DNA of 64,000 nucleotides, from assembly GCF_030684315.1 (NCBI RefSeq), contig NC_081377.1, positions 30,132,001-30,196,000 on the forward strand, in the 5' to 3' direction. Within the stretch, counting starts at the first letter, position 1. The number at the start of each line of letters is the position of its first letter. Positions 1 through 32,697 of the stretch are shown here, in pieces. This stretch comes from Stegostoma tigrinum. Taxonomy: Eukaryota. The notes beneath the pieces are model-generated. The model was not told the DNA's origin and ran no database searches. It saw only the letters and a list, made by a program, of their open reading frames with translations. Position numbers and translations under genes: made by a program.

Positions 1-303
1 GGAAGATGGTAGGAAAGAGGGAAGATGGAGTTGCAACACAGAACAGTTACAATCCTGTTATGTAACAGAGCAGGCTCTAGAAGTTGAATTGCATACTCTT
101 GTGCCTATATTGCAAAAACATTGTTGACTCTAGTCTGTACAAGGGTGTAAGTGAGACAATTCATTCATTCACTGCATTTCAGATTGCCCCTTCTCCTACA
201 TGATTCTTCCTTCTGAAACGCAAAATCTGCTGTTACATGAAAAAACCATGTGTAAGTCAAGGCTCCTTTAGTTTAACCAGCAGGCTCACATTTTCCTTGG
301 GTC

Positions 304-350
304 GGGGGGCGGGGGGGGGGGGGGGGGGGGGGTGGAGTGGGGGAGGGGGG
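304..350 (+). repeat. Poly-G / G-rich tract (G-quadruplex-forming potential)
   Basis: ggggggc followed by a run of over 20 G, then tggagtgggggagggggg; homopolymer length may be inexact in the assembly. Confidence 0.8.
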
Positions 351-562
351 TGTGGTGTGATTGTGGTCACGGTCACCTGCCCGGTGTCAGATCTTGTCCT
401 GCACCATTCAATTCAACAGTTTTTCAATGATCATTTGCTGGGGGTGCAAGTTTGAAAAGCAAATACACAGTGAGAGCAAAGCAGTATTCAGGACTTTGAT
501 TGATGGAATCAATTATCCCCCTCATTAAACAGTGAAATTAAAGGATCAAGAGAGGAACAGCA

Positions 563-680
563 GGCTCTTGTGGCAGTGTGGTAGTGCTCCTACCTCTGAG
601 TCAGAAGGCCTGGGATCAAGTCCCACCTGCTCCAGAGGTGTACAGTAACATCTCTGAACAGGTTGATTAGAAAATATCTA
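563..680 (+). mobile_element. tRNA-derived SINE 5' head fragment
   Basis: ggctcttgtggcagtgtggtag...gggatcaagtccc has A-box/B-box-like motifs; a similar copy lies at about 4887-4970. Confidence 0.6.
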
Positions 681-717
681 GAGGAATAACAGAAGGAAAT
701 ATTGAATTAGAATCAAA

Positions 718-748
718 TGAGAGAGAGAGAGAGACAGAGAGAGAGAGA
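718..748 (+). repeat. (GA)n microsatellite
   Basis: gagagagagagagagacagagagagagaga. Confidence 0.9.
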
Positions 749-2039
749 AATAAAGGAAGGAGGAACGGTTTGTCTTCAGAGAGAGATAAAAAAAAAAGAG
801 ATTTTTAAATTTTAACATTAAAGTACAATTGACCAGCTGCAGGAATGAGAATTTGCAGTTTTTGTGTGCCAAATTGGAGAGCTTAAGGGACTTTGTCATT
901 TTGAGGAGCTTTACAATGTTATATATCAGTTCTATCTTTGTAAGGTGTTTGGTGGCTAATTAATGTGAAAATGCAGCTCATTTCTCAAGAATTGCTGGGG
1001 TGGTGGTGAGGCAAAGATACTTTTCTCATGAAGCTAAAGGCAGGAGGAGGAAAAACAAACATTCATTCAGCAACTTGTGGTGATTAGCAGCTCAAGGGGT
1101 ATCTCATCCTCTAAATAAATGTGCAAAACAACAAGTGAATAACAGTGAGTGCCTTCAATCTCACTTAACTTCCAAAGTTCTGTGCTTGTATTCCAGTTAC
1201 AGTGGCTGTATTTTCTAACACAATGATACTTAATACTTCCAGTCAGTGCAAGCTTGCAATTACTTGCTGTCCTGGGACAGGTAGGAACGGGATCAAACAA
1301 GATGATGTGCACTAAAGGAGATAGCAGAAGAGGATCACCATGTAATGGGAAAACGTGGTCCTACAACCTTGAAGGAAAGCAACTGGTAAGTGACTTGATA
1401 GAGACAAAGAAAAGCATAGGATCGAAATTCTATGCCACAAACACTGCTTTAGATTTAAGAGTAATGAATTACAAATTCAGACTCGTTGGAGACAAACGTA
1501 AAACTCAATTAAGAATTGCCTCTCAGTCTCAAGGTCAACATGCAAAACGAACTGCTGGGCGGAATACTGGAATCAAAAACTATAAGCAATTAAATACCTC
1601 GGATGGAAAGTGCAGGGGGAGCAGGGTAAAAGTTCTAGCTGATTGGCCGAACTGGTTTCATAAATCTCAAACAGACAATAGTCCGACAGGCCTTGTGCTG
1701 CACATAGACACGAAACCTGCCTATTTCCCTCGGTACTAAGTCGCAATGAGTCCCTGTTTTGAGTCAAATGTGACTCCCTTACTTTCTTCACGGAAACTAC
1801 CAGATCTTCTGCGTTTGTCCAGCATTTTGTTTTTATTTCAAGTCTCCAGAATCTGCGCTATTTTATTTATTATTTTAGAAATCTTTGCCGAAATCCCATT
1901 AAAAATAAGCATATGCCCAGTTCATTGTTCCTGTTTCCACTAACTCGAAGTGGCTCAGATTGTTCAAATGAAGCAACTGCACCATCTAACGGTCAAAATT
2001 CCATACTGCAAGTCAAAGGGAAACAGTCGACGCTTTATG

Positions 2040-3000
2040 AAAAACTGAGAGGACTGCGGATGCTGTAAATCAGAAACAAAATCAGAAGTCGCCGGAAAAG
2101 CTCAGCAGGTCTGGCAGAATCTGTGAAGAGAAATCAGAGTTAACGTTTCGAGTCCGATGACCCTTCCTCAGAACTCATGGTAGCTAGGAAAATGTCAGTT
2201 TATATGCAGAAGATAGGTGGTAAGAAGTAAACAATATATGTGGGAGTAGAGCCCAAAGAGAGAGAGAAGAGCAGTTGGACAGACGAAGGATTGGATAACG
2301 GTCAGGCTCAGAGGGTGAATAGCTGTTAATGGAGACTGTAATGGCTTACAATGGATTGTGTGCAATACAGGCTGTGAGATAACCAGGCCTGGTGCGTGTG
2401 TGGAGATGGTGGTTAAGACATGGGAGCCCTAAAGTTATTAAACTCGATACTGAAAGGGTCCCCAAGCAGAAAATGAGTGTTGTTTGTTCTTTCAGCTTTG
2501 CTGGGGTACTGCAGCAAGCCTGAGACACAGATGTTGGCCAGGGAACAGGGTGGTGCGCTAAAGTGGCAGGAAACTGGAAGCTCTGCCTCATTTTAGCAGG
2601 CAGAGTGTGTGTTCTGCGAGATGGTCAATCTACCCTTCGTTTCTGCAACATAGAGGAGACCATATTTGAGCGCAACAACTACAGTAGACCAGATTGTGCA
2701 GATAAAGTGCTGCTTCACCTGGAAGGTACGTTTGTCCCCTTGGATACTAGAGAGGGAGGAAAGTAATTGGCAGGTGTTACACCTTTGGCAGTTGCAGGGG
2801 AAGGTGTAGTGGGGCTGTTGGAGGCAGGGTGGACCAGGGTGTCCTAGAAGGAGTGGTCCCTGCAGAAGGTGGACAAGGGAGGGGAGGGGAACATGTCTGG
2901 TGGTGGCACCTCGCTGGAGATGGTGGAAATGGCAGCTAATGATCTTCTGGATGTGGATGCTGATGAGACATTACGTAAGGACAAGGGGAACCCCTACGCT
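2040..3000 (-). mobile_element. Degenerate Penelope-like element 3' part (GIY-YIG region plus terminal repeat with hammerhead core)
   Basis: The reverse complement of 2780-2950 resembles the PLE segment 'PSPPLSAFRRDHSL...TFPCN' seen intact at 16640-16750; the terminal repeat is at 2040-2176. Confidence 0.7.
2137..2176 (-). ncRNA. Minimal type I hammerhead ribozyme motif
   Basis: Minus strand GAGTT-CTGAGGA-A-GGGTC(ATCG)GACTC-GAAA-CG-TT-AACTC: 5-bp stem I, CUGANGA, 5-bp stem II, GAAA, loopless palindromic stem III. Confidence 0.75.
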
Positions 3001-5124
3001 ATGGTTGACTGGAAGAGCAGAAGCCTTGATTAAGGTATGTGACCAGGCACAGGGTAGGGGACTAGCTGTGGAAGTACAGCCTGTTTTGTAATACTTGCCT
3101 TCAACGAAGGTTGCATTTTACCTTTTCTCAGTAGTTGCTATGCCCCTGATTTTCTCTCATATCATGTGACCCAGATTATCAACTCAACAAATTTGTGGCC
3201 TCACCCTACACCAATACTGATACAATGGTGTATTAGGGTTGTCAACTCTCCAAGATTGTCCCAGAGTCAGCAGCAATTAAACATTAACATCCTAGGCGAT
3301 GGAGTGAGAAGCCAAGGAGAAAAATCATAGTAGTACTTAAAAATCTCTCACTTTCTTTGAATACTTTTTTTTGACTTTATAAAAATGGAATATTGGCTAC
3401 TTGACAGGGCAGTATTGCTGAAGGCAGGAAGTCATGTGATTAAACCTCCAGGAATATGTCCAGAATTAGCAATCCGATATGTAATGGATGTACTACATGA
3501 TACATCAGCAATGCAGGGAAATCAAGTTAAAAGTACATCATAATTTTAAAGTCTTTTTTAAAAAAAATCTAAAAATAATAAGCTGGCATCAGAAGAGGCA
3601 ATCCTGAAGCTGTCAGGTTATTGGACAAACCTAACTAGTTCACATGTTAAGACATCCTTACCTAATTCGGTGTGCAGTATTCAGTATCTAGACCTACAGT
3701 GTAGTTGACCTTTAACTATCCTCTGAAGTGACAGAGCTGAAACGTTATTCTGGGACATCTAGCTCTGCTCCTATCCTGGTAATGAACATGAGAAGGCAAT
3801 GGCAACAAACAGAAGCACTGTCAGCGTCAAATGGTTCTGAAGATTATTCCTATTTTCCTGAAAATATTAACCTGGTTTCTATTTCCACAGATGCTGCAAG
3901 GACCTATGGAGTTTTTAACAGTAGTTTGTTTTTATTTATTAGCATGTTTGATCATTTTGGTATTTTCTTGGGTCATACAGATTATTTGAAAAGCCAAATA
4001 ACTTGGCTTGCTTGCCAAAGTACTGGAAACACAAGGACCATGAGGGAGAATGAATTATTGCAAGGATAATTAGGGTTTGGTGATGAGTGTCAGCCTTGCT
4101 CAACAATCATCTTGTTAAAAAAAAATGGAAGAAACTTCACTACAACTTTTCCATCACAAGGACTGTCAGCTTCCACCTTCGCAATATCACTCATCTTCTC
4201 AAAACTCGCTATCACTCATCTCCAACTGTTACGTTAGTTCTTCTGCTGCTGAAATTTTCACACTTTATAAATATCAGCTCATCCAAAGCTCTGCTGACCC
4301 ACATCCTCCTCCTTGAACTGCAATGGCTCACGAAACTTTAGCATCTTTAATTTTTCATGCTTATTCTCAGATTTAAATAGACCCAGATGGAAACAGGGGA
4401 ACCGTGGTGCAGCTAGTTTGGGAACTACAGGCCCAAAGTCTTATCGTCTTCCAAGTACACTACATTTAATATGTCTGAACTTGCTTACATACTCAAATGT
4501 TATTTTCAGAAAAAAATCTAAATAAACCAATATTAACTGCTTCTGCCAATTCCACATGAATCTATTTTACGAATTGTCCACAAGACTCAACTGAATTTTT
4601 GAAATGGGTTTAAAATTCAGTTGCTTCAAGCACAGGCCATGACCTCTGGTTCTATTTTTATGAACAATGGGGAAAACAGCTTGTCACTGTTTACAGCACT
4701 TGGATACTTGTGGTTTGTATGGCTCAGTCACTACACCATGAGAACTTATTTCATGTCAGGTGCAAACAGCCTGGCTATATATTTCCTGTTTTTTTATATC
4801 TTTCAGACAGACACACCAAACTGGGTGCTTGTGGCTTTCAGTAGGAAATGCTAACAAAGCTAATTTTCTACAGTTATAATGCCTAAGGCCCTCTTGCGGG
4901 ACAGTGGCAGTGTCCCCAGACTGGGAGGAACAGGTTCAAGTCCCACCTGCTCAAGCGGTGTAGAACATTGCTGACAGTGAAGGACATAGCAGTGCATTCC
5001 AAGTCAGGATCATGTACATCTTGAAAAGCAACCTGCAAGCGGTGGTGTCCTTGCACTAGTTAATGGAGATCAAGGTTTTAGAAAGTGCTGTTGAAGAAGC
5101 CTTGAGGAGTTGCTGCACTGCAGT

Positions 5125-5422
5125 GGGTAGCATGGTGCTTCAATGGTTAGCACTGCAGCTTCACAGTCCCAGGGACTGATTCCAGCTTTGGGTCACTGTC
5201 TGCGTGAAGATTGCATTTACTCCCTACATCCGCATGGGTTTCCAATGGTGCTCTGGTTTCCTCTTACAGTCCAAAGATGTGCAGGTTTGGTTGATTACCC
5301 ATGGTAAATGCATAGTTCTGGTGATAGAGTCAAGGGTTGGGTCTGGATGTGATGCTGCTCATGGGGTTGGTGCAGATTCAATGGGCCGAATGGTATCTTT
5401 CTGCACTGTAGGGATTGTATGA
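5125..5422 (+). mobile_element. HE1-like tRNA-derived SINE
   Basis: Head ggtagcatggtgcttcaatggttagcactgc; body ggtttcctcttacagtccaaagatgtgcagg; tail gggccgaatgg...gggattgtatga. Similar copies at 33275, 33849, 36731 and 37214. Confidence 0.75.
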
Positions 5423-5665
5423 TCTTGCAGATGATTTGGAGGTTGTGAAGAGCCTTACGTGAATGCATGTCTGTTCCTCCTGAAAGGAGCAGACAAGCCT
5501 CCTGTGACACCAGTCAGAACCCATTTCATGCTCTCTTTGCCTAACCTATGCTGCAATTTACCCAGAAGTCCTCAGCGCAGTTGTTTTGTACCTGAAATCA
5601 AAGGCATCCTATTCCTTAATCTGACAATGAGCAATAAATTAAAGAGGAAGGGAGAAACCAGTCAC

Positions 5666-5860
5666 CTGCGTTGCCCGGAGCATGTGGAAGATGTCCATTG
5701 TACGTGCCACAATGTCCTGAACAGTCTCCTGGCCAACTTTGCAGAGGGTGACACATGTGATCTCACGCAGGGCACTTTGAGGCTGCTGTGGGGGTACTGG
5801 CGCTGCGGTCTGAGAGTGTAGGCCAGGAATCCTTGGCCCAGCGCCAGGTAGTGCTGTCAT
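5666..5860 (-). CDS. MED30: MED30-like (Mediator subunit 30) first coding exon, 65 codons; downstream exons not found in window
   Basis: MTALPGAGPRIPGLHSQTAAPVPPQQPQSALREITCVTLCKVGQETVQDIVARTMDIFHMLRATQ matches the recalled MED30 motif (A)REVNTASLCRIGQETVQDIVYRTMEIFQLLRNMQ. Ends at a phase-0 donor CAG|gtgact. A polypyrimidine acceptor tttcttctctag| lies 17 nt upstream of the ATG (exon starts at 5877). Confidence 0.85.
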
Positions 5861-6789
5861 GACTGACTAAGGCAACCCTAGAGAAGAAACAAATTAGGTC
5901 AGAGAAGTATGTAAGCGATTACCTGAACAGATTTGGGGTTTAGGAAGTGGAGGCTGATCAGATCAGATTGTTTTAAATGATTCAAAAGATATGATTCATC
6001 AGAGCAGTTCTAGTTGGTAGGGGAAGCCCAGAAAAAAAAAGAGCTTGATTTTAAAATTTGGGCTCAGCTTTGGAAAGCAACTAACATTTATATAAAATGC
6101 CCAATGTCGTAAAATTTCCCAAAGCAATTCAAAAGAATGTGACCCAACAAAAAATTGACACCAAGCTACAGGAGGAAAATTTGTGTCAGGTGACCACAGG
6201 CTCAGCAAACCGGTGAATATATGGAGCATTCCAAAAGTAAAAAGGTAGAGTCAGAAAGGGTCAAGGAATTCTAGGGCTTGGAACCAGGCACTTGAGGCAC
6301 AAATGCCAAAAGATAAAATGTCATAACTGGAGAAGCAGGGATCAGAAGGACACAGTGAAATCCATACATTTCTCTCCCCCACCTCCTCCCCCCAACACCA
6401 GGTAGAGAAATTTGTGGAACTCCGATTCCTAAAGTCTGTGAATTCTGGAAATCATCAGAACTTGCACAAAATCCGTAAATATTTATTGGGTAAGGGCATT
6501 GGGAAATAGCAAACAAAGAATGGTTAATCATGTCAGGAACAGATTAGCCATGATCTGCTGAATGGAGTTCTATGCAATACCTTGTCACAGCTGTCTGTAT
6601 CACCCAACTTTCCAGCTAGATAGATTTTGATCATACATGAAAATTAGAAATTAATGTAGACAAAGAAAATTAACAGTATGAGAATAATCTCCAGGAAATA
6701 AAAGTATCTATTTTACAGAAAGCCATCCCTCAGTTTGTATAGTCACCTTGAAATCGGAAACTTCAAAACTCACTCCAAGAATTGGTGCA

Positions 6790-13337: not shown

Positions 13338-13483
13338 CTAATCTCTGGGCTCCTGGCATTCCCTACAATTGACCATATCATCAGAGTAATTTTCTATTTG
13401 GATGGTGATGGAATGGAAGTCAAACTTGCTTTGGAGTACGTGGTTAGCTTTAGCCAATATTTCCTGAGCATTTGCATCCTCAT
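13338..13483 (-). CDS. SLC30A2: SLC30A2 exon 8 (146 nt, terminal coding exon)
   Basis: ttgcag|AT; (D)EDANAQEILAKANHVLQSKFDFHSITIQIENYSDDMVNCRECQEPRD*; ZnT C-terminal TIQIE and CxxC. Confidence 0.95.
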
Positions 13484-14385
13484 CTGCAAGAAACACAGCC
13501 ATTAAAGTTCACAAATCACAAAAAACTAGCAAACATGAAGAGAAGAAATTGAAAAGGCTAATGGAATTGTGATCTTCATCTCAAGTGAATTCACTACTAT
13601 GATGCTGTAGCCTTAGTCTGAAAAAATATTGTCATTTCTGTTTTAAATTGTGGGCCTGTAATTTTATAAATGGAACGAGATTAGTATTGATTAGTAAAGG
13701 GATCAAAGGTTACAGGAAGAAAGTAGGAGACTGAGGTTGAGAAACATAGCCATGATTGAATGGCACAGGAGACTTGATGGACCAAATGGCCTAATTTTGC
13801 TCCAATGACCTTATGGTGTTATGAGACTTAGGCCATTTCCTGAATTTAGATTTCTTGATTAATATTTTGTAAGATAATGCCTTTAATACATTGAGGCACA
13901 AAAAAGGTCTTGGTAGATTTTTGAAGGGAGACAGTATCATGGACCTGCAATTTTTTTATAGGAACTGGATTGATTATGAAACATGGTTGTGTGCAGAAAA
14001 ATTCTAGTAAATGTGTCAACCAATTTTCACGTAGTAAGGTCCTAAACTTTGGTGACAATTAGAATTATCTGTGTTTGAGAGATTGTCAATGGGATAAACA
14101 TTGGACAGAGCACTAAAGAGAACTCCCCTCCTCTTCCCATAGTGCCAGGAAATCTTTTACGTCCATGCAAGGGCCCAGGTGAGACCTCATTTAACATCCC
14201 AAACAAAAGATGACAGCTGACAGTCAGCATATATGCATTACTGTGCTGATACTTTTCGCTTGAATTGGGTGTAAAAAGAATTAAACTCATAACCATCCCA
14301 CTCGAGAGGAAAGTGAGTCATGGGCTATACAGCTTTAATATACTTCCAGCAATCCATGTCAAAAGCCAAATACATTAACACTTAC

Positions 14386-14520
14386 CGATGGCAATGTGGA
14401 CAGACAACAACGGTTGGTTGATTGTCAGTGCCCAGATGTGGAGGCTATGCATAGTTTTCACGCCATCAATTAATAGGAGCGATTGTTTAACCTGATTAAA
14501 ATCCATTCCTTTTGGAGTTC
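14386..14520 (-). CDS. SLC30A2: SLC30A2 exon 7 (135 nt)
   Basis: tgacag|GA...ATCG|gtaag; (G)TPKGMDFNQVKQSLLLIDGVKTMHSLHIWALTINQPLLSVHIAI. Confidence 0.95.
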
Positions 14521-14769
14521 CTGTCAAAATGCAGTGCTGAGCTTCAGGAGGAATCGTGTTTGTCAATGAACATATTGTACTCTTATTTTCAGTCTTATAG
14601 TTTCCCATAACAACAAATGAATATCTCCAAATCTCTTGCTTTCTTGTCTTAGTTCTTCTTTTCTATGCGAAGACTGCTTCTTAACTGACTTCAACTCACT
14701 CCATGTCTGAAATTCAAACCCTGTCTCCCACACATTAGCAGAATGCAAAGGAAGATACATGTCATCCCC

Positions 14770-17633
14770 GATAACAGTGTGGAGCTGGATGAACACAGCA
14801 GGACAAGCAGCATCTCAGGAGCACAAAAGCTGACATTTCGGGCCTAGACCCTTCATCAGAGAGGGAGATGGGGAGAGGGAACTGGAATAAATAGGGAGAG
14901 AGGGGGAGGGGGACCGAAGATGGAGAGAAAACAAGATAGGTAAAGAGGAGAGTATAGGTGAGGAGGTAGGGAGGGGATAGGTCAGTCCAGGGAAGATGGA
15001 CAGGTCAAGGAGGTGGGATGAGGTGGTAGGTAGGAAATGGAGGTGCGGCTTGAGGTGGGAGGAAGGGATGGGTGAGAGGAAGAACAGGTTAGGGAAGCAG
15101 AGACACGCTGGGCTGGTTTTGGGATGCAGTGGTGGGTGGGGAAGAACTGGGCTGGTTTTGGGATGCAGTGGGGGAAGGGGAGATTTTGAAGCTTGTGAAG
15201 TCCACATTGATACCATTGGGCTGCAGGGTTCCCAAGTGGAATATGAGTTGCTGTTCCTGCAACCTTCGGGTGGCATCATTGTGGCACTGCAGGAGGCCCA
15301 TGATGCACATGTCGTCTGAGGAATGGGAGGGGGAGTTGAAATGGTTTGCGACTGGGAGGTGCAGTTGTTTGTTGCGAACCAAGCAGAGGTGTTCTGTAAA
15401 GTGGTCCCCAAGCATCCGCTTGGTTTCCCCAATGTAGAGGGAGCCACACCGGGTGCAATTGATACGATATAACACATTGGCAGATGTGCAGGTGATCATC
15501 TGCTTGATATGGAAGGTCATCTTGGGGCCTGGATAGGGGTGAGGGAGGTGGTGGGGGGGCAAGTGTAGCACTTCCTGCGGTTGCAGGGGAAGGTGCCGGG
15601 TGTGGTGGTGTTGGAGGGGAGTGTGGAGTGGACATGGGAGTCGCAGAGAGAGTGGTCTCTCCGGAAGGCAGACAAGGGTGGGGATGGAAAAATAGCTTGG
15701 GTGGTGGGGTTGGATTGTAGATGGCGGAAGTGTCGGAGAATGATGCGTTGTATCCGGAGGTTGGTGGGGTGGTATGTGAGAATGAGGGGGATCCTCTGGG
15801 GGCGGTTGTGGCAGGGGCAGGGTGTGAGGGATGTGTTGCGGGAAATGCGGGAGATGTGGTCAAGGGCGTTCTCGACCACTGCGGGGGGAAAGTTGCAGTC
15901 CTTGAAGAACGTGGACATCTGGGATGTATGGGAGTGGAATGCCTCATCCTGGGAGCAGATGCAGCGGAGGCGGAGGAATTGGGAATAGGGGATGGAAGTT
16001 TTTCCAGGAGGGTGGGTGGGAGGAGGTGTATTCTAGGTAGCTGTGGGAGTCAGTGGGCTTGAAATGGACATCAGTTTCTACCTCGTTACCTGAGATGGAG
16101 ACTGAGAGGTCCAGGAAAGGAAGGGATGTGTTGGAGATGGCCCAGGTGAACTTGAGGTTGGTGTGGAAGGTGTTGGTAAAGTGGATGAACTGTTCGAGCT
16201 CCTCTGGGGAGCATGAGGCGGTGCCGATACAGTCATCAATGTAACGGAGGAAGAGGTGGGGTTTCAAGCCCACTGACTCCCACAGCTGCCTAGAATACAC
16301 CTCCTCCCAACCACCCTCCTGCAAAAATTCCATCCCCTATTCCCAATTCCTCCGCCTCCGCCGCATCTGCTCCCAGAATGAGGCATTCCACTCCCATACA
16401 TCCCAGATGTCCACATTCTTCAAGGACCACAACTTTCCCCCCGCAGTGGTCGAGAACACCCTTGACCGCGTCTCCCGCATTTCCCGCAACACATCCTTCA
16501 CACCCCGCCCCCACCACAACCGCCCCCAGAGGATCCCCCTCATTCTCACAGACCACCCCACCAACCTCCGGATACAACGTATCGTCCTCCGACACTTCTG
16601 CCATCTACAATCCAACCCCACCACCCAAGCTATTTTTCCATCCCCACCCTTGTCTGCCTTCCGGAGAGACCACTCTCTCCGCGACTCCCATGTCCGCTCC
16701 ACACTCCCCTCCAACCCCAACACACCCGGCACCTTCCCCTGCAACCGCAGGAAGTGCTACACTTGCCCCCACACCTCCTCCCTCACCCCCATCCCAGGCC
16801 CCAAGATGACCTTCCATATCCAGCGGATGTTCACCTGCACATCTGCCAATGTGTTATATTGTATCCACTGCACCTGGAGTGGCTTTCTCTACATTGGGGA
16901 TACCAAGTGGAGGCTTGGGGGCTGCTTTACAGAACACCTCCGCTCGGTTCGCAATAAACAACTGCACCTCCCAGTCGCGAACCATTTCAACTCCCCCTCC
17001 CATTCCTCAGACGACATGTGCATCATGGGTCTCCTGCAGTGCCACAATGATGCCACCTGAAGGTTGCAGAAACAGCGACTCATATTCTGCTTGGGAACCT
17101 TGCAGCCCAATGGTATCAATGTGGACTTCACAAGCTTCAAAATCTCCCCTTCCCCCACTGCATCCCAAAACCAGCCCAGTTCTTCCCCACCCCCCACTGC
17201 ATCACAAAACCAGCCCAGCTCGTCCCCTCCCCCCACTGCATCCCAAAACCAGCCCAGTATGTCTCTGCTTCCCTAACCTGTTCTTCCTCTCACCCATCCC
17301 TTCCTCCCACCTCAAGCCGCACCTCCATTTCCTACCTACCACCTCATCCCGCCTCCTTGACCTGTCCATCTTCCCTGGACTGACCTATCCCCTCCCTACC
17401 TCCTCACCGACACTCTCCTCTCCACCTATCTTGTTTTCTCTCCATCTTCGGTCCGCCTCCCCCTCTCTCCCTATTTATTTCAGAACCCTCTCTCCATCCC
17501 CCTCTCTGATGAAGGGTCTAGGCCCGAAACATCAGCTTTTGTGCTCCTGAGATGCTGCTTGTCCTGCTGTGTTCATCCAGCTCCAGACTTTGTTATCTTG
17601 GATTCTCCAGCAACTTCGGTTCCCATTATCACT
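14770..17633. mobile_element. Head-to-head (fold-back) Penelope-like retroelement with RT C-terminus and GIY-YIG endonuclease; 16-bp TSD
   Basis: Left arm (minus) has RT 'FLRYIDDCIG' and 'LPFLDL'. Right arm ORF 16407-17060 has 'CNRRKCYTC' and 'NVLYCIHC...LYIGDT...EH...VANHFN'. TSD gatacatgtcatcccc at 14754-14769 and 17634-17649. Confidence 0.92.
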
Positions 17634-18189
17634 GATACATGTCATCCCCACTGGGGAGCTTTAGTCCTCAGCATTCCTCTCACTTCTTTCTCCTTCCACA
17701 CCACCACTGTCAACACTCTTCTCATAACTCTTCAAAATCAATGCAACCATCTTAATTAATTTTTGCTATACTCAACAGGCTTGATTTAGTGTGCTGTTCA
17801 GATTTCAGGTGACAGCACATCTTAAAGAGAACTTTGCTCAACATAAATTATTTGTTCTATGCACAGCATATTTCCAATTGCTGCATAAACACACATCTTA
17901 GAAACCATTTGCACGGCCTCCTCACTGCTGTAAATATTCCTTCATAGTTATTCTACCTCTTTCCATTTAACTCAAAGACTGACAATGTAATTTCCTACAG
18001 AAACTGATTCTTCCCTTACTCATTTACTCCTCATACCTTTCCAAATTCATAGTCTTCAGAAAGCCAAGGAAGATCATTCTTGATTTGCTTCAGATGTTCC
18101 CATGCTTTCTTCACTCTGTGGCATTCTGCATCTTTATATAACTTTTCTCAGCAGATCATCATGTTAATTTCCTGAACTTCACTGAATTG

Positions 18190-19150
18190 TTACGATTCGA
18201 CAGGAGACCATTCAGCCCATCATGTCTGACCACTGTCCAATGATCATTATGACTTAGTTCCATTCACTAGTCTTTTCCACATACCATTGCATGTTGTTTC
18301 AAATTATAAAAGCATCTAATGTCCTATTCAATGTCTCAATTGACTCCGTCTTCAACACACTTCCAGGCTGTGAATTTCAGACATAAACCACATACCGTGT
18401 GAAAGGTTTTTTTTCACATTACAATTTCTATATTTTCCAAATCGCTTTAAATCTGTCGCGCCTCGGTCTCAATCCTCTTACACATAGGAAAAGTTTGCCC
18501 TTGTACTGACTATACAGATTCCTTTATGATTTAGAAATCTTCTATCCAATCTCTTAGCTGCCCTTTCTCCAGGCCCAAATTCACCAATATTTCCCCATAA
18601 CTGAAGTTTCTCATCACTGGGATCATTTAAGTATATCCCTTCTGCAATGCACTGATATCCTTCCTATAGTATAGTGCCCAAAACACATACAATGCATCAA
18701 GCCTAACGACTGTCTTGCAAAAATTTAACGTAACCTCTTTGCTTTTGTACTCCATGACCCATTTATAAAGCCGAGGATCCTGAATGCTTTCTTAACTCCT
18801 CTCTACCGGACTCAAACTGTTTTCTCAAAATCACTCTTCACTTCTCTAATATGCTTTTTCATCTCCTCTTTGAACACCAGTCATTTTCTTAAGTGTCAAC
18901 TACACTTTCAACTGGAGACTTGTCATGAGCATTCGTTTACTTCTTTTTTGTTAATTTTTACATTTTTTTCACCCAGAGAGCTCTAGATTTGTTTGCCTTC
19001 TCTTTCAAGGAGAACATACATTGGATTGTACCCAAACCCTTTCTTCTTTGAAGATAGAACAATGTTTTCCTGCAGGTTTATCTTATCAACATTTCATTCT
19101 ACATGCCTCAGGTCCATTTTTTTTCAAACATTAAAATCAGCTCTCCCCTA
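18190..19150 (-). mobile_element. Degenerate CR1-like LINE relic
   Basis: Reverse complement resembles CR1 ORF2 3' end and tail (gggctgaatggtctcctg); many stop codons. Confidence 0.5.
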
Positions 19151-19163
19151 GTTAATTACTTGC

Positions 19164-19269
19164 CTTCCATCAGAATGCAGAGAACGTCCCTCAGGATAGA
19201 GATGGTTGTCCCCAGAACAAGAATGGAAAACAGGAAGGTGCAGATTGGATCCACTATCTTATATTCAGG
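19164..19269 (-). CDS. SLC30A2: SLC30A2 exon 6 (106 nt), GC donor
   Basis: atttag|CCT; [35 protein letters not shown]; ends GAAG|gcaagt. Confidence 0.93.
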
Positions 19270-20273
19270 CTAAATACAAATGAAACAAAAAACTTATTCC
19301 AATGGTGTGACCAAATATTTAAATAATACTTCACACTTGGAGATATGAAGTTTAACAAAAAATCAGTGGTGATCTGTTCAGGAAACTCTGATTCCTTAGC
19401 TCCTGTGCCAAACAGGAATATTATCAATCCTAGCGGAGTGCTTAAGCATGAACTAAACCTCAATATTTTAAGAGCAAATTGCAGCAAAGTACAATAAAGA
19501 ATAACGTACAATACATCCTCAAATTCCTTCACTGTACAATTGGCAGTTGCATATTCATCTATCTAAACACCAAGACCTGGAATTCTCTCCCTAAACCTCT
19601 CGTTTTTCCCCTATTCCTTTAAATTCCATGTCTTTGACCATCTCTTCAACAACAACTCAGTGCCAAATTTTGCTGAAAGTCATTCCTGAAGGACTCTTTC
19701 TCCTGCCCCTAACAATCCTCCAATAACATCTCCAGGAATTTAAGGCTAGTCATCTCAACATTGATAACAAATGCCTGGAGGAAAAAAAAACCACAGAACT
19801 GTAAAAATTGTTTATCACTCCCATGTGTGTTTTTTTTTAAATATTTTCATTTATTATTTCTAAAGTTATTGAAGATGGGTTAAAAATGCTTTTTGAGTAG
19901 GTGGAAAATCAGAGATGGGGCATGACAGCATATTACAGATTCTCAAGAAATGCAATCTGTAGAAATAGGATGTAATGACCTTGTTGATGAGCCTCAGAAG
20001 TAAGCTGTAATGTAACTGTAAACTCACTAATCATGCACTCATACTCAACTGGCCGGTTGGAGCCTATGAAGTGCAGGATATATTGCTGTGCACCCTTACC
20101 ATCATGTACAGCCTGTTAATAGATGCTGTTCAAAAGTAGCTTAGAAATAATGCCTGTGCTTAGATGAAGATCCAAGAAACACATTCTAGAATTATGCACT
20201 CCCCAAAATGTCCATTTTTAAAATTAGATGTACTCCCTTTAAAAGCCATGTTACTGAAAGACTGTTCCTATAC

Positions 20274-20466
20274 CTTAAAGTAGATGATATAGGCAGCTAT
20301 CAGGACACCAACGCTTTGCAACAGGTCTCCCACAACATGGATGAAGGCAGCTCGTACACTGGCATTCACATGGCTATTGGCATTGGACTCGATATCCTGT
20401 GATCTGACTTCTCCTGTGCTGCCGTGGCTGTGATTATGACCAGACTGATGAAGAATGATGCCCATT
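20274..20466 (-). CDS. SLC30A2: SLC30A2 exon 5 (193 nt), His-rich loop and TM5
   Basis: ccacag|A...AAG|gtatag; MGIILHQSGHNHSHG...NASVRAAFIHVVGDLLQSVGVLIAAYIIYFK (HxxxD zinc site). Confidence 0.96.
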
Positions 20467-21691
20467 CTGTGGAGAGTTAGTGAATAGGAATAGGTAAAAA
20501 GAGAATTTAGAATTGGGTGGATAGCAAAGACTGAAGTTTCAGTATATGGACAAAATTGGAGGTGAAAAGGATGATGGTCAAGTCTTTATTCTACACTGGC
20601 AAATACTGTCATGAACTTCACAGATAGGGAATGACCAAAGGTGTGTTCAGCTCTTAGCTGGAAGAATAAATTTACCATAATTGGTTTCAATGCAACTAGA
20701 ATAAGATGGGAGGGCATTTTATAAAGGATCAGGGAAAGTTTACAATTCTGATTGGTACTAAGTGATCTCTTGTGATATTTACTCCGGAATAAATGTCTGG
20801 CTTTTTAGAAATATTTATCCATAAAATGACAGCATTGCTGACAAGGCCAGCATTTATACCCATTCCTAATTGTCCTTGAGATGTTGGTGGTGAGCCATCT
20901 TCTTGAAATACTACAGTTTATCAAATGAAGGTACACCTACAGCACTGTTAAAAGAGAGCTTGTGAATTTTGACCAGCCAGTGAAAGAACAGCAAATTAGT
21001 TCCAAGTCACGGTGGTATGTAGCTTGGAGGGGAACTTGCTGATGGTGATGTTCCCACACATCTGCTTCCCCTGTCCTTCTTCACAAGACAGGTTATGCGT
21101 GTGGGATCTGCTGCTAATCAAACCTCAAGTTTTGCATATACATCTCTCATCACCACCCTCCGCCGCCTCCCCCCCGACTCCCCCACCCCAGTCCTCATCC
21201 CCAAGCCAAGTTTCCTGCAATGGAGAAGTCAAGCCCACTGATCTGTTGAAGCTCACTTTGACTTGAGCAGATACCAAGCAGCAGATGGGATAAGGCAAAA
21301 TTCAATTCAAGATCACCTGGTTCCCTCAGATTATCCAACCAACAATTCAACTGTGATTGGCTGATGAGGTATGATGTTAAAGAAGAATATAGCTCATCTC
21401 TTTGGGACTGCTGTAGACTCACTGATAGGCATTAATTGTTACGATTCATCAACAACTCTGTATCATTGTATTACACAATTCCTAAAATTGTAGAAGGAAA
21501 GCTCAATGGAATTGGAGTCTTTCTGGACCAATGATTCTCATGTTCTCACAGCTATTCAGTTATACTATTATAGCTAATAGGATAATCACGAGTATTGGAC
21601 TCTGCCTTCAGATAATCTCAATTTCAGTGACAATGGAGGGGGCAAAATTGTCTTTAATATCCCTGGACTCAGGAGGATGGGCAAATTATCT

Positions 21692-21842
21692 CAGAGATAG
21701 TAGGAACTGCAGATGCTGGAGAATTTGAGATAACAAGGTGTAGAGCTGGATGGACACAGTAGGCCAAGCAGCATCTGAGGAGCAGGAATGCTGACGTTTC
21801 GGGCCTAGACCCTTATTCAGACCCTTCATCCAGCTCTATATC
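21692..21842 (-). mobile_element. Short PLE terminal-repeat insertion with small inverted end and 14-bp TSD
   Basis: tgggcaaattatct at 21678-21691 and 21843-21856; contains gctgacgtttcgggcctagaccctt (hammerhead stem II/GAAA, reverse complement). Confidence 0.8.
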
Positions 21843-22480
21843 TGGGCAAATTATCTGTTGGATTTTTGCTCCTAATCTCTGCCCAGTAACTCCTAGTAAA
21901 AAGTGCAAATCCACTTTGAAATTCTCCCATGAAATATGGCAGGCCCACCATTCATTGCCCGTTTCTCACTGACCTCAAATGCAGTGTCTTTTGAGACCAT
22001 TTCAGAGGATAGGTAAGAACAGACAGCATTGTTGTGAATCTACATTCATATGTGGATTAAACCAGGTACAAATGGAAGACTTCCTCTCCCAAGCGATTGT
22101 TGTTATGGTCACCATTCCCAATACAGGATTTATATTCCTGAATTGTTAGATTGAACGCATTTAATCAATTTAAGTTCAATTTTGCATCCACATCACCGGT
22201 TTGCACATCTGGTTTACTAGTCCAGTTACATTACCACTGCATTAACATCTACTACCCAATCTGGTTTCATTGTTACAGTAATCAGTGACACCTGAAGTAA
22301 CAGGCAGAAAAGAATTGCATTTAGGCAATGACAAAAAGAGTGGATAATTAAAAAAGTTACTGAATGGTGGCTAGTGTTTAGAGAAACGACATCCTGGCAA
22401 GAGTCTGATCTCTCCTGAAAGAAGTGAAGGAAGTTCATTTAAAAAGTAACAAAATACTACTTAGACAAGAGGATACTCAC

Positions 22481-22634
22481 ACAATATTGACTGCAACAGC
22501 ACCTCCTGAGGTGATTACCATGGCGCCACCTTTAATCTCGTACTGCCCAGAAATGAGTCGCTCAACCGCCAGATAGACAAGCACACCGGTCACCACCCAG
22601 ATGGACAGCACAGAGACCAGAGCTCCGAGAATCT
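22481..22634 (-). CDS. SLC30A2: SLC30A2 exon 4 (154 nt)
   Basis: ctgaag|AG...ATTGT|gtgagt; (E)[50 protein letters not shown]. Confidence 0.95.
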
Positions 22635-24627
22635 CTTCAGGACACCAGGAGAAGAGCAAAGTTCATTCATATAAAATAATTTGTCAGAACGTCGTACAGG
22701 AAATCTCAAATTTACAATACTAGTAGATAGCTATTGCATCTCAACTAAATGTAATGTACGGAAGTACAAACATCTCAGATTTAACAAAATCCTTCCAGAA
22801 ACCAGATCGAACTTAACATGCCAGCATGCCTTGAGAAGTTAAGGATCAGATTTCTGCAGTAACCTCTGTACGGGACTACGGAATTACTGTGGTTTCATGG
22901 TATTCATCGAAACATGAGCAAAAGCAAGCCTTTCAGCACCTGGAACCTGCTGTGCTATTCCACACAATGGCTGATCATCTGCCTCAATGCAACTTCTCAC
23001 TTATTTCACAGGATATGGGCATTTAAGTTTAATTTTGAGCCCACATCTCCAGAGCACTGATTTGCACATCTGGTTTGCTAGTCCAGTAACATTACCACTG
23101 CATTAACATCTACTACTCAATCTTGTCTTTATTGGCTAGGCCAACATAAATTGCCCACCCCTGATTGGCCAGAGGGCAGTTTTAAGTAATTGCTGTGGGT
23201 CTGGAGCCAAATGTTGGCCAGACCAGGAGAGGATGGCCATTTTCTTCCCCAAAGGAAGAAATGAATCAGATGTGTCTTTTCCCAACAATCAACGTTTTTA
23301 TGGTCAACCTTAAATTGTTAAGTACAGACTTGTTTTTATTGACAAAAGATTGCATCATCTACCAAGGTGTCTTTTGAAGCCAGAACATTACCTGGATTTC
23401 TAGATTAACAGTCTAGTGAGAATACCATTACATCATTGCCTCCACATACCCCTCGATGTCATTATTGTTTGAAATTTATTGCTTCTCTTGAACAAACTCA
23501 ATTACTGAGTTTCTGCTGTCCTCTGGGGATACAGCATTCCAAAGATTCACTATCCTCTGGGTAAAGAAGTTCCTCATCTCAATCCTAAACAGCTTGGCCC
23601 TTATTTTGAGTGAGGTCTCCCCCAAACCTCAAGCCAGTTTTAGACCATCCTACATCCACTCCCAACCGAGAAAAAGATCCTTTGTGCATCCACTCCATCT
23701 AATCTAAATATTGATACCAAAGAGGTCCAGACTACTACTGCATAAACATCTGTCATTGTCTGCACCAAGCTAGAAAATCAAGCTGATTAAAAGTGGTTAA
23801 TGATATCAAGACTGGAAAACCACAAGGCTACAGTTGGGACACATTTTAGATAAAGGAGTGGACCTGGAGAAATGCCACAAAAACAAACCTTTAAGATGTT
23901 ACATGATGAGGAACTTCTGCAATGCAATCCTGCTGATAATGATATCGAAGCCTACTGGTTACAGAACAGGAAAAGAGATGCCAATGACAGATAATCACTC
24001 ACATGGTCTCAGACACACACATATTGGGAGTCTAGCTCAGTTTTCAGCAACAAACGCACAATACTGTCCCTGCCCTCAGCAAATAGCACATAAAACCTCC
24101 AGAAGCAAAACTAGTCTTCATAATCAGCTTCAGCAGGAAGAATAAAAACAAAAATATTTTAAATCAAATCGGATTTGACACTTAAAGCAGATAATTCACA
24201 ACACTCAAAATGAACCTTACCATCTCAATTTCAACTCATTTAGGATTGATCATTAATGGTTTCTCTATATCAATCTCCTGTTTCTTTACCTATGCCTAGA
24301 TCAACCTCTTTTTGCTCTACACCATTATCAATTTTAGTCATTTTATTTCCTGTATCATTGGAATTTCTATTCATTCTTTGCTATCCTTCACTTGGTCACC
24401 TTACCCTTTCTTTGCACTGATATAAAAATTGTTATATTTCTAACAACTTCCAGTTCTGACAAATGACCATCAACCTAAAGATTTGTTTTTTTCTCTCTCT
24501 TCTCAGGTCACCAATTAAGACCAAGAGTTTCCCATGTTTCCAGGATTCACAACATTTTACTTTTCAATTTCTTTTGCAATTTGGCCCACAGGGATCATGG
24601 GCAGCTTTGAAAAGGAAAAGCACCCAT

Positions 24628-25511
24628 TTTTCAAGGACCACAACTTCGGCCTCACAGTGGTCGAGAACACCCTTGACCGTGTCGCCCGCAACTCATTCCT
24701 CACACCTCTTCCCCGCAATAACACCTGCCCCCACACCTCCCGCCTCACCCCCATCCCAGGTCCCAAGAAGACTTTCCACATCAAGCAGACGTTCACGTCA
24801 CCTATGCTAATGTGGTATACTGTATCCGCTTTTCCAGATGGGCCTCCTCTACAATCGGGGAAACCAAGCAGAGGCTTGGGGACCGCTTTGCAGAACACCT
24901 ATGCTCAGTTTGCACCTCCCAGTCATGAACCATTTCAACTCCCCCTCCCATTCCTCAGACGACATGTCTATCCTGGGCCTCCGGCAGTGCCACAATGATG
25001 CCACCTGATGAGTTGCAGGAACAGCAACTCATATTCTGCTTGGGAACCCTGCAGTCCAATGGTATCAATGTGGACTTCACAAGCTTCAAAATCTCCCCTC
25101 CCCCTACCTCATCCCAAAATCAGCACAGCTTGTCCCTGCCTCCCTAACCTGTCTTTCCTCCCACCTATCCCGTCCTCTCACCTCAGGCCCCACCCCCATC
25201 TCCTAACTACTAACCTCATCCCGCCCCCTTGACCTGTCCGTCCTCCCTGGACCGACCTATCTCCTCCTTTACTCCCCACCTACACTCACCTTTACTGGCT
25301 CCAACTCTGCCTCTTTGACCTGTCTGTCTCCTCTCCACCTATCTTCTCCTCTATCCATCTTCAATCTGCCTCCCCCTCTCTACCTATTTATTTCAGAACC
25401 CCCTTCCCCATCTCTATTTCTAAAGAAGGGTCTAGGCCCGAAATGTCAGCCTTCCTGCTCATCTGATGCTGCTTGGCTGGCTGTGTTCATTCAGCTCCAC
25501 ACCTTGTTATC
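24628..25511 (+). mobile_element. Internally deleted Penelope-like element 3' part
   Basis: Colinear with the 16420-17597 arm (FKDHNF..VVENTLDRV..., TCPHTSRLTPIPGPKKTFHIKQ); ends at accttgttatc. Confidence 0.85.
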
Positions 25512-25638
25512 AAAGCACAGAGTGGAATGCATTACTAGCTGATTTACTCAAATAAACATAAACAAAGAAACATACAATCACTCATGTTGATGAGTGACCT
25601 CTCACTATTTTTACATACAAATACCGACCTGGTCTCAC

Positions 25639-25785
25639 CTGAACGATGCCAACCAAAGTTCATGGTTTTAGTTGCAGGCCGAGAAGAAATCCACAGTGAG
25701 AACAAGCTGACAAGCATGGTGGCAAAATCTGTCAAAAGATGAGCGGCATCAGTCATGATAGCCAGACTCTGGGCCAAGTATCCCC
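25639..25785 (-). CDS. SLC30A2: SLC30A2 exon 3 (147 nt)
   Basis: attcag|GG...TCAG|gtgaga; [48 protein letters not shown] (CDF signature, HxxxD). Confidence 0.97.
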
Positions 25786-26549
25786 CTGAATGAGAGAGAC
25801 AGATCATAGGCAAGGATCAGAACAAAGGATTTCAGTATCCTCCCTATTTATTCCAATATCCCGAGTATCCAGGATAATACCTTGACACAATATCCCTACT
25901 CCATTTTAATTTTCTGCCCATCTCTACAAGAAAGTTTCCCTTTCTGGACATAATTTCAGCACTAACTGTTTTACAAATAACCAAACTTCAAGGATGAAGA
26001 AGTTTTATTCATCTAGTTAATCCTAAATTCTGTTCTAATGTATGTACACATGTCCTTTACCATTAGAAACGGTCAAGAGTGAAAATTCTGGATGATTTCA
26101 ATCATCCTTCCCAAATACACCAAGGCTGATTGAAATGACCCACCCAAGCATGGGCATGGTTGACTCAGCAAAGTCAATTTCTGACTCGTGGTTCTTTACT
26201 AAATTGGATCTGATAAAAGGGAGGTATTTTCAAAAAAAATGGCTTAAGCATATTCTTTAATGGAACCCAAATAACACCAGTTTCAAACCAAACATAGAAT
26301 TGAAATGCTTGGATGGTCCAGCCACAAAATTATCTTTCCATTCTTTTGTAGAAGAGTAGCCACAACTCAGAGGATGGCACAAAGCTGGCTGTGGTGTCTG
26401 TCCTTCATCAAGCTGGACACAAGCCATGTTTACCTTCAGCTGCAGTTCAACCAGAATTCCCAGAAGTATGGCACTATGAACCCTATAGGGGTCAGTATTA
26501 ATATACAAGACTGTCATTTGGAGTATCATCAGCCTGTGCCATTTTTCAG

Positions 26550-29094: not shown

Positions 29095-29321
29095 CATGGT
29101 GCTATTAAAAGAGCAAAGATTAGTCCTGCCTACTGTCCTGGTCAAGATTCATATCTCAACCAATATCATGTAGCAATTATCAAGTTCCTGTTTGTGTGAG
29201 CTTGCTGCGCACAACTGTCAGCTGCATTTCCCATATTACCACAGTGGTTACACTTCAAAAATTGCCTATGAAGTGCTTTGGGGCATGCTAAAGATGTTAA
29301 ATATACCAGATATTCACAATA

Positions 29322-29600
29322 GATAACAAGATATAGAGCTGAATGAACACAGCAGTCCAAGCAGCATCAGAGGAGCAGGAAAGCTGACTTCAGAAATGTC
29401 TACGCCCAAAATGTCAGCCTCCCTGCTCCTCTGATGCTGCTTGGCCTGCTGTGTTCATCCAGCTCGACATCTTAGAACATAGAACATTACAGCACAGTAC
29501 AGACCCTTCGGCCCTCGATGTTGTGCCGACCTGTCATACCAATCTGAAGCCCATATCTTGTCATCTCAGATTCTCCAGCATTGGCAGTTCCCACTATCCC
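29322..29600. mobile_element. Palindromic PLE-derived element with an inserted SINE/LINE tail fragment
   Basis: Arms gaacacagcagtccaagcagcatcagaggagcagg / cctgctcctctgatgctgcttggcctgctgtgttc; insert agaacatagaacattacagc... at about 29473-29550. Confidence 0.7.
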
Positions 29601-29632
29601 AGATAATTACAAGTTGTTGTTTCCTTCTTTAC

Positions 29633-29841
29633 CTATTACTTCACTAATTATAAAGACCAAGCAGACAGCAGAAGCTAGATACAGCCTCCTACGGGCAATC
29701 TCTTTATCTACGTCCTTATGATCTCCAGAGGATTGGCTGGAATGGCAATGCCCAGGCTCCAGTTGTTCTAGAACAGGGTCCACACGTGTCTGACCGTCAT
29801 GCAACTTGGTTGACAAGGTTTCACGGCCCTCCAGGGACGTG
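29633..29841 (-). CDS. SLC30A2: SLC30A2 exon 2 (209 nt)
   Basis: ttttag|C...ATAG|gtaaag; TSLEG...EPGHCHSSQ...ARRRLYLASAVCLVFIISEVI (HCH motif, TM1). Confidence 0.93.
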
Positions 29842-30794
29842 CTAAAAACCAAAAGAAGAAAACAAAACCTATAATTATAATGAAGGGAAATGGCAATATA
29901 GTGGTAATGTCAGTTTACTAATAATCCAGAGGCCCAGACTCATGCTGAGTTCAAATCCCCCTACATGACAGCTGTTGGAAACTAAATTTAATCAACAAAT
30001 GTCTTTACGTTACAAAGTACAGACTATGATCTTCAATTTCCACTGGTCAATTTAATACCTGGAATTTATGTGCAAGGAAACAGCTTCTAAGAAAGGAACT
30101 CAAAACACTGGCATAAAATGGCCACAGTGATCATCTGACTCACACAGGTTAGTTTCATTAAATCAGTATGGATTAGATCAAATGTAGTCTGAACTGAAAT
30201 TAACATTCTCCTTAAGGGCATTCAAATCAGTCCCGTGAGAAGATTGAAACGGTTCTTATGTGCTATTTGACCCACACCATTATGAGAATCTTTACATGTT
30301 AGAGGTAAAGAATTTATTGCACTTATCCATCCAAATAACATCCCCACGAACATGGAATATATACTCAGCTTTTATTACAAAGGAGCTTATTTGGCAAACC
30401 AAGAGAACTAGAATTGAGAAAGCAGAACTGATCATACGTTGAGAATTTTGAAAAGCGTGAAGATTTGCTTCAGTAGCTACAGTTGAAGAGGTGCTACAGG
30501 GGAAAGTTAGATCTAAACCAGCAATACATTGATCTCACTGCATCAAAACCTTTGAAACAACTGGAAAAGTAATTCACTGTTATTGGATTTTTAAAATCTT
30601 CTCTGCATTCTTTACCTCCCTCTACCTTAAACTTATTTGTTTTATTTTTCTTTGCATGTGATTGTCTGATAGCAGATTTGGGAACTGGATTATTGCTTTA
30701 ATCAAGCTTTATGTGTGCTGTTTTAATAGTTCTTTTTCTAAAAAAAACCTTGAATGAGTTTTGTTAATAAATACAAATTTAAAACACAACAGAA

Positions 30795-32626: not shown

Positions 32627-32697
32627 CCGGCGGAGGAACTGCTTCTCGGGACCAGAGAGTTCTTCAGAAGCGGAGACGTTTCACGCATTTCATCCAT
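32627..32697 (-). CDS. SLC30A2: SLC30A2 exon 1 coding part (71 nt)
   Basis: gcgATGG Kozak context; MDEMRETSPLLKNSLVPRSSSSA(G); strong donor GG|gtgagt; phase 2 joins exon 2 in frame; lies in a CpG-enriched region. Confidence 0.85.

What the first reader, a model, noticed from the sequence alone, without database searches (positions are those of the whole stretch)
5666..5877. Diverged MED30 paralogue next to SLC30A2: candidate retained 2R ohnologue of a Mediator subunit
Seen: an intact 65-codon exon with the MED30 signature LCKVGQETVQDIVARTMDIFHMLR, on the same strand as and directly downstream of SLC30A2. Established (recalled): human 8q24 has SLC30A8-MED30-EXT1, while the paralogous 1p36 block has TRIM63-SLC30A2-EXTL1 with no MED30, and mammals have a single MED30. 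Inference: this gene fills the slot that is empty in mammals. Its many substitutions in a normally highly conserved helix (ITCVT vs VNTAS, HMLRAT vs QLLRNM) suit a second, diverged copy that could form variant Mediator complexes. Prediction: EXTL1 lies on the + strand left of this window.
Basis: partly seen in the sequence, partly recalled or inferred. Interest (0 to 1): 0.75.

Follow-up and report, generated by a model that had tools for sequence, protein, structure and literature searches.

The report
Second MED30 gene kept by fishes
This shark exon begins an intact second gene for MED30, a core part of the Mediator transcription machine; it is shared by sharks, rays, chimaeras and ray-finned fishes, was not found in land vertebrates, likely dates from the first vertebrate genome doubling, and is predicted to take MED30's place in some Mediator complexes.

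Summary
Observation confirmed. The minus-strand exon 5877-5666 (AG acceptor, ATG 5860, GT donor) encodes 65 residues identical to the start of a 180-aa RefSeq 'MED30-like' protein of Stegostoma. That species also has a canonical MED30 on another, larger contig, so this is a true paralogue ('B'). Both types occur in 18 of 20 cartilaginous-fish genera with B, and in sturgeon, paddlefish, gar and teleosts; all 14 named tetrapod rows near the B query were canonical type. The tree joins shark B with ray-finned B (100/99) and rejects shark-specific and teleost-3R origins. The neighbouring zinc transporter is closer to SLC30A3 than SLC30A8 and fits SLC30A2. A published paralogon table splits the SLC30A2 and SLC30A8 blocks at 1R, so the pair is likely from the first genome doubling; no lamprey or hagfish sequence was available to test this. 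B keeps the three helices and 33 of 34 large hydrophobic helix sites, so it likely replaces MED30 in the upper Tail. Not wholly new: Bourbon 2008 noted two Med30 genes in three teleosts, and his zebrafish Med30#2 is type B. The shark copy, age and tetrapod loss were not found in print.

The parts
5666..5877 (-). First coding exon of the MED30 paralogue (type B): 17 nt 5' UTR, ATG at 5860, 65 codons (Pro/Gln-rich unstructured N-terminus and helix 1), phase-0 GT donor at 5665
   Evidence: helix 36-64 in the model
1..5665 (-). Intron after the first coding exon; the remaining coding exons lie left of the window
   Evidence: no second MED30 hit by tblastn; P0002 continues for 115 residues
8500..11000 (.). 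CpG-rich stretch (observed/expected 0.65-0.91) between the transporter's 3' end and the exon; candidate promoter and untranslated first exon of the paralogue (inferred; the coding exon starts with an acceptor, so an upstream exon must exist)
   Evidence: exon not delimited
13338..32697 (-). ZnT-type zinc transporter, most likely SLC30A2: 8 coding exons at about 32697-32627, 29840-29631, 25786-25640, 22635-22480, 20465-20274, 19269-19162, 14518-14387, 13484-13338
46698..60436 (-). MuRF-type TRIM gene, most likely TRIM63 (RING exon from ATG 60436, B-box 56517-56350, coiled coil 52200-51970, acidic tail near 46775); 3' end not delimited

Best explanation
The exon starts an intact second MED30 gene (type B), orthologous to the second Med30 of ray-finned fishes, that likely arose in the first vertebrate genome doubling, was likely lost in the tetrapod line, and is predicted to fill the MED30 slot of Mediator in place of the canonical protein. 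Shown: the exon, the second locus in the same species, the A/B split before cartilaginous and bony fishes parted, strong conservation of B within cartilaginous fishes, and the three-helix layout with its hydrophobic faces. Inferred: B pairs with MED28 through helices 1-2, packs with MED27/MED29, and joins MED11/MED22 through helix 3, as mammalian MED30 does; a complex would hold either A or B. I think the most likely reason both were kept is divided expression (tissue, stage or dose) of two largely exchangeable subunits, with B having changed faster at non-hydrophobic sites and in the linker soon after the duplication.
For: Two loci in Stegostoma; both types in 18 of the 20 cartilaginous-fish genera in which B was listed (lists of A clusters showed 15 of 24 and 15 of 23 members). 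Careful tree of 66 rows: B one clade 100/99, A 93/86, A+B 97/94 against 13 invertebrate-type rows. AU tests on 28 rows reject a shark-only duplication (p 0.0004) and a teleost-3R origin (p 6e-103). Lamb 2021 (PMC8040251, supplement rows and sections read): SLC30A2 and TRIM63 in quadruplicate B, SLC30A8 and TRIM55 in D of paralogon 11, with (A,B) splitting from (C,D) at 1R, supported for this paralogon by fusions as well as trees. An A-type gene model of Diretmus is fused to an EXT1-like domain, and a salmonid med30 sits with ext1c, crybg2 and znf683. Model helices 36-64, 74-108, 137-178; best six Foldseek hits are chains of Mediator structures at 51-58% identity. 33 of 34 large hydrophobic helix sites kept; the Ile whose I44F change causes mouse cardiomyopathy (PMC10252979) is kept as I50. 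B identity zebra shark-skate 92% and -Callorhinchus 84% (A: 94%, 90%). NP_ records for Callorhinchus and zebrafish B and full-length B proteins on 1-kb contigs point to spliced mRNA.
Against: No cyclostome, amphioxus or tunicate sequence was identified among my proteins, so 1R rests on synteny alone. The canonical shark locus beside SLC30A8/EXT1 and EXTL1 left of the window were not seen. The A clade has only 93/86 support. B is far less conserved across classes (shark-gar 59% vs 85% for A), which fits a changed role as well as relaxed constraint. Foldseek TM-scores are low (0.34-0.40, rmsd 14-18 A) because a lone chain does not fix helix angles. Loss in tetrapods rests on lists cut at the best 120 of 297 and 120 of 571 hits; no coelacanth row appeared in either, and no B row for lungfish, bichir or bowfin.
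Confidence: 0.6

Rival explanations
1. B builds a biochemically distinct Mediator: it enters the complex but changes upper-Tail geometry or factor contacts, so A- and B-complexes serve different genes.
For: B stem branch 0.57 against 0.16 for A, then short branches within sharks. More changes on B than on A in 25 of 25 relative-rate comparisons, 13 of 25 at p<0.05, not independent. 30 columns are invariant but different between 12 cartilaginous-fish A and 12 B proteins; 10 columns differ across all fishes. B lacks the three residues VNK that A carries in helix 3, the helix that binds MED11/MED22.
Against: The hydrophobic faces are kept. The VNK gap is the ancestral state (7 of 7 outgroups lack it) and A's own short isoform lacks it too. 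The relative-rate test is not significant for Callorhinchus (0 of 5). Many B-specific residues differ again between sharks and teleosts, so no single new surface is shared by all B proteins.
Confidence: 0.25
2. The pair arose by a local segmental duplication before jawed vertebrates split, or at the second doubling, not at 1R.
For: The tree dates the split only to between invertebrates and the shark-bony fish divergence. MED30 is absent from the part of Lamb's table that is held (file cut, and it lists only trios and quartets).
Against: Both neighbours in the window belong to curated ohnologue families of paralogon 11, whose SLC30A2/SLC30A3 side and SLC30A8 side part at 1R. A and B lie on different contigs in sharks, rays, Callorhinchus, sturgeon and gar.
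Confidence: 0.1
3. B no longer works in Mediator and has a separate role (for example as a free MED28-binding protein).
For: Only 57% identity to A over the core, 31% in the linker; no binding shown.
Against: All three helices and the C-terminal end, which have no known use outside the complex, are conserved; 60 columns are the same in at least 90% of both A and B.
Confidence: 0.07
4. The exon is the only MED30 of this genome (reciprocal loss), a pseudogene, or an assembly artefact.
For: Downstream exons lie outside the window and were not read as DNA.
Against: Canonical MED30 is on record for the same species; the matching protein is full length and its orthologues are 75-98% identical; independent contigs carry the exon unchanged.
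Confidence: 0.02

Closest known systems
Teleost Med30#2 of Bourbon 2008 (PMC2475620; zebrafish AAH97178 = NP_001028926, LOC619273)
   Same: Same clade: AAH97178.1 lies in a type-B cluster, and ray-finned B joins shark B at 100/99.
   Different: Bourbon saw it only in three teleosts and called them the only metazoans with two Med30 genes; no shark, gar or sturgeon was examined, and I saw no dating or synteny in the passages read. Shark and teleost B are 59% identical over the core.
Mammalian MED30 (TRAP25; PDB 6W1S, 7EMF, 8T1I), upper-Tail partner of MED28
   Same: Pfam Med30, same length class, same three helices, best PDB hits E 4e-55 to 8e-52; type-A exon-1 read-throughs end at the same Gln.
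   Different: About 60% identity over the core; lacks VNK in helix 3; different linker; sits beside the SLC30A2-type gene instead of SLC30A8; not found in tetrapods.
Paralogous Mediator kinase-module subunits MED12/MED12L, MED13/MED13L, CDK8/CDK19
   Same: Vertebrate duplicates of a Mediator subunit; MED13/MED13L are described as mutually exclusive and partly redundant (PMC12451381, abstract start in the listing).
   Different: Those lie in the detachable kinase module and survive in mammals (PMC10252979); MED30 anchors Head and Tail and its loss destabilises the core (PMC8432849, abstract).

Membership tests
MED30 family (Pfam PF11315) | Match to the Med30 profile above its curated cut-off | tested here: met
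   39.9 bits vs 28.1 for the exon alone
MED30 family (Pfam PF11315) | Two-helix N-terminal coiled coil, loop, third helix; about 180-200 aa | tested here: met
   Helices 36-64, 74-108, 137-178 in the 180-aa model; layout from PMC7921410 section 9; helix angles not matched
MED30 family (Pfam PF11315) | Hydrophobic helix faces that form the upper-Tail bundles | tested here: met
   33 of 34 large hydrophobic sites kept; helix limits set by me
Mediator subunit (function) | Pairs with MED28 and co-purifies with the complex | not testable with these tools
Orthologue of canonical (8q24-type) MED30 | Groups with tetrapod MED30 to the exclusion of a second gene of the same species | tested here: not met
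   Stegostoma A, not B, groups with tetrapods
Vertebrate whole-genome-duplication ohnologue | Duplication after the invertebrate outgroups and before the shark-bony fish split | tested here: met
   outgroups named as molluscs and a flea where names exist; no invertebrate chordate identified
Vertebrate whole-genome-duplication ohnologue | Copies on different chromosomes of one paralogon with paralogous neighbours | tested here: inconclusive
   B side seen directly (SLC30A- and TRIM-type neighbours); different contigs; A side only indirect
1R (first doubling) pair | Placement relative to cyclostome genes | not tested
   No lamprey or hagfish sequence among the listed hits; synteny argument only
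SLC30A2 (neighbour) | Closer to SLC30A2 than to SLC30A3 and SLC30A8 | tested here: inconclusive
   SLC30A8 excluded as best match; no SLC30A2 sequence available; Atlas name generic
Intact, expressed gene | Full open frame and spliced transcripts | tested here: met
   Full-length records in 20 genera; NP_ records for Callorhinchus and zebrafish; for this species the record is a RefSeq model and only this exon was read as DNA

The most novel reading that the evidence does not exclude
Fishes run two structurally distinct core Mediator complexes, set by a mutually exclusive MED30 A/B choice at the Head-Tail hinge that has lasted since the first vertebrate genome doubling; tetrapods lost B and kept only A with its optional three-residue insert in the hinge helix.
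Probability: 0.2. Interest if true: 0.72.

Novelty: new member of a known kind. Interest (0 to 1): 0.42.

Why it matters
The mammalian Mediator paralogues named in the review read (PMC10252979) all lie in the detachable kinase module, whereas MED30 holds the core together. A MED30 pair kept in cartilaginous and ray-finned fishes since before they parted gives a natural test of whether the core itself comes in variants, and zebrafish has both genes, so the test is easy. It also corrects the natural guess that the teleost pair came from the teleost duplication, warns that single-gene med30 knock-outs in fish may be buffered, and shows that database names are unreliable here: both types are named 'MED30' in some species and 'MED30-like' in others. 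Retained ohnologues lost in tetrapods are a familiar class, and the teleost pair is already in print, which keeps the score moderate.

Tried and rejected
Whole-genome search: no genome held. RNA: no RNA holder listed for 1-8000; this says nothing on expression. tblastn for further exons in the window: none. The 56-residue N-terminal extension of the Rhinoraja model (P0133) gave no real match, so the upstream exon was not found; a scan for GT[AG]AG donors in 8400-10600 printed none. Atlas: generic names only. Pfam scan of 19 long or odd MED30 models for fused neighbour domains: 1 of 19 had one (P0374). The name 'E3 ubiquitin-protein ligase' on B-type P0090 is not backed by any domain, so it was not used as synteny evidence. 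dN/dS could not be computed (no coding DNA of relatives); protein conservation was used instead. No complex prediction was sent (no partner sequence). Paper searches: med30+paralog 40 papers, 25 listed; med30+ohnolog 0; synteny terms 5, none on this gene by title and counts; med30+zebrafish+teleost+duplicat 1; EXT-family terms 2; ext1c+extl1 0, so ext1c = EXTL1 stays recalled; zgc+114119 (identifier recalled) 2 unrelated; med30+shark+mediator 2 unrelated. MED30 not in the held supplements of PMC7269912 or PMC10927551 (3 files searched, 1 not readable). Bourbon's alignment pages are pictures and could not be read. Rejected: shark-specific duplication, teleost-3R origin, reciprocal loss, SLC30A8 identity of the neighbour.

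Full report
Observation. The minus strand holds an exon from 5877 to 5666 with an AG acceptor, 17 untranslated bases, ATG at 5860, 65 codons and a phase-0 GT donor. It matches Pfam Med30 above the cut-off (E 7e-10) and is identical to residues 1-65 of P0002, XP_059510308.1, a 180-aa 'MED30-like' protein of Stegostoma tigrinum; the window is therefore likely from this shark or a very close relative. No other MED30 exon is in the window. Contigs of 4 of 4 public runs (one study) cover the exon at single-copy depth without differences. A CpG-rich stretch at about 8500-11000 is the likely promoter; the untranslated first exon was not delimited.

Two types of MED30. The 120 best of 297 hits to P0002 sort by motif into 103 type B and 17 type A; the 14 named tetrapod rows are all A. 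A search with a fish A protein listed 120 of 571 hits; its 99 new rows are all A. Stegostoma has A on a 130.6-Mb contig and B on a 47.9-Mb contig. B was listed for 20 cartilaginous-fish genera including Callorhinchus, and A for 18 of them; Pristis and Hemitrygon had no A among the members shown, but the A clusters were listed only in part. Sturgeon, paddlefish and gar have both on different contigs. No B row appeared for bichir, bowfin, lungfish or tetrapods and no coelacanth row appeared at all; because the lists are cut, loss is likely for tetrapods and open for the rest.

Age. A careful IQ-TREE tree of 53 vertebrate and 13 invertebrate-type rows (174 columns; rows chosen by me from over 400 held) gives B 100/99, A 93/86 and A+B 97/94. 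On 28 rows the AU test rejects shark A+B as a clade (p 0.0004) and teleost A+B as a clade (p 6e-103). The split thus predates the shark-bony fish divergence. Named outgroups are two molluscs and a flea; no cyclostome or invertebrate chordate was identified, so the tree cannot tell 1R from 2R.

Neighbours. Upstream on the same strand lie an 8-exon ZnT gene and a MuRF-type TRIM gene. Two transporter exons score 75 and 34 bits against SLC30A3 and 62 and 22 against SLC30A8; SLC30A2 is not in the PDB. The B-box ties between TRIM63 and TRIM54; the coiled coil hits TRIM63, the only such chain found. Tandem order without a gene between, and the small chromosomes that carry B in most species, fit SLC30A2-TRIM63 (human strand layout recalled). 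Lamb 2021 (PMC8040251; passages, section 8 and supplement rows read) lists SLC30A3/TRIM54 as quadruplicate A, SLC30A2/TRIM63 as B (gar LG6, chicken 23, human 1) and SLC30A8/TRIM55 as D (chicken 2, human 8) of paralogon 11, with (A,B) parting from (C,D) at 1R. Either identity of the neighbours therefore puts this gene across the 1R split from an SLC30A8-linked MED30. That canonical MED30 lies beside SLC30A8 and EXT1 is recalled for human; indirect support is a Diretmus A-type model fused to an EXT1-like domain. For B, a salmonid block znf683-crybg2-anxa2-med30-ext1c is reported (PMC7662092, passages); which med30 it is, and that ext1c is EXTL1, I did not test. Unchecked notes of this scan put TEKT2 and NR0B2 on the same piece, which fits the human 1p34-36 block (recalled).

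How it likely works. In mammalian Mediator MED30 pairs with MED28; helices 1-2 pack with MED27/MED29 and helix 3 forms a four-helix bundle with MED28, MED11 and MED22 (PMC7921410, section 9 and passages). Its loss destabilises the core (PMC8432849, abstract). The B model has the same three helices, its best fold hits are Mediator chains though with poor overall superposition, and 33 of 34 large hydrophobic helix sites are kept. A and B of Stegostoma are 57% identical over the core: 60% helix 1, 63% helix 2, 31% linker, 71% helix 3. B changed faster: stem 0.57 against 0.16, more changes on B in 25 of 25 relative-rate comparisons, 13 significant, none for Callorhinchus. It is then well conserved within cartilaginous fishes (117 against 126 invariant columns in 12 species each; four of B's are invariant gaps) but not across classes (59% shark-gar against 85% for A). 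A carries three extra residues, VNK, in helix 3; B and 7 of 7 outgroups lack them, and the short A isoforms of Stegostoma, Rhincodon and Acipenser lack exactly these, which suggests an A-specific alternative splice donor (inferred). I infer that B occupies the MED30 slot, one per complex, and that the two genes were kept through divided expression (0.6 for the whole account; about 0.95 for an intact ancient paralogue, 0.85 for genome-doubling origin, 0.7 for 1R). Functionally distinct complexes are the main rival (0.25). Binding and expression pattern are untested.

What is known. Bourbon 2008 (PMC2475620; passages and supplement 6 read, alignment pages unreadable) states that the three fish examined are the only metazoans with two Med30 paralogues and lists zebrafish Med30#2 as AAH97178, which falls in a B cluster. 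RefSeq already models the shark gene. I found no paper on the cartilaginous-fish copy, its age or its loss (open-access library only; supplements of papers not opened may list the pair).

Verdict. Real, intact, ancient paralogue; first reading supported and sharpened to 1R and to all fishes. New member of a known kind; interest 0.42.

Noticed in passing
P0399/P0397, P0296/P0387, P0277/P0415 (canonical MED30 of sharks and sturgeon): Canonical MED30 has 178- and 175-aa isoforms that differ by VNK in helix 3; type B and invertebrate proteins have the short form, so the long form is a vertebrate type-A addition, likely by a second splice donor nine bases on.
   Followed up: partly
P0023/P0293 (Dallia) and ten other teleost pairs: In teleosts A and B often lie on a contig of the same length; the Dallia locus tags are 230 apart. 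Teleosts seem to have kept one copy of each on the same chromosome after their own duplication.
   Followed up: no
P0374 (Diretmus argenteus): Gene model joining the first three MED30-A exons to an EXT1-like GT64 domain; read-through or annotation artefact.
   Followed up: partly
window 15092-17547: Two opposed copies of a Penelope-like element (RT/GIY-YIG-like frames) inside a zinc-transporter intron; already handled in note e1-9835242.
   Followed up: no
window 32000-33500: CpG-rich stretch (o/e 0.72-0.75) around the first exon of the zinc transporter (ATG 32697).
   Followed up: no
window 11654-11969 and 12666-12935: A duplicated stretch of some 150-200 bases downstream of the transporter stop, with repeated AATAAA pairs at 12801/12779 and 11856/11834 on the minus strand.
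   Followed up: no
window 42605-42832 (-): Short frame with a weak Myb/SANT-like (MADF) score, E 0.05, between the TRIM and transporter genes; possibly a transposon remnant.
   Followed up: no
P0391, P0349 cluster (Narcine bancroftii): The same type-A protein is recorded under two distant accession series and two contigs, suggesting a recent extra A copy or an assembly duplicate.
   Followed up: no
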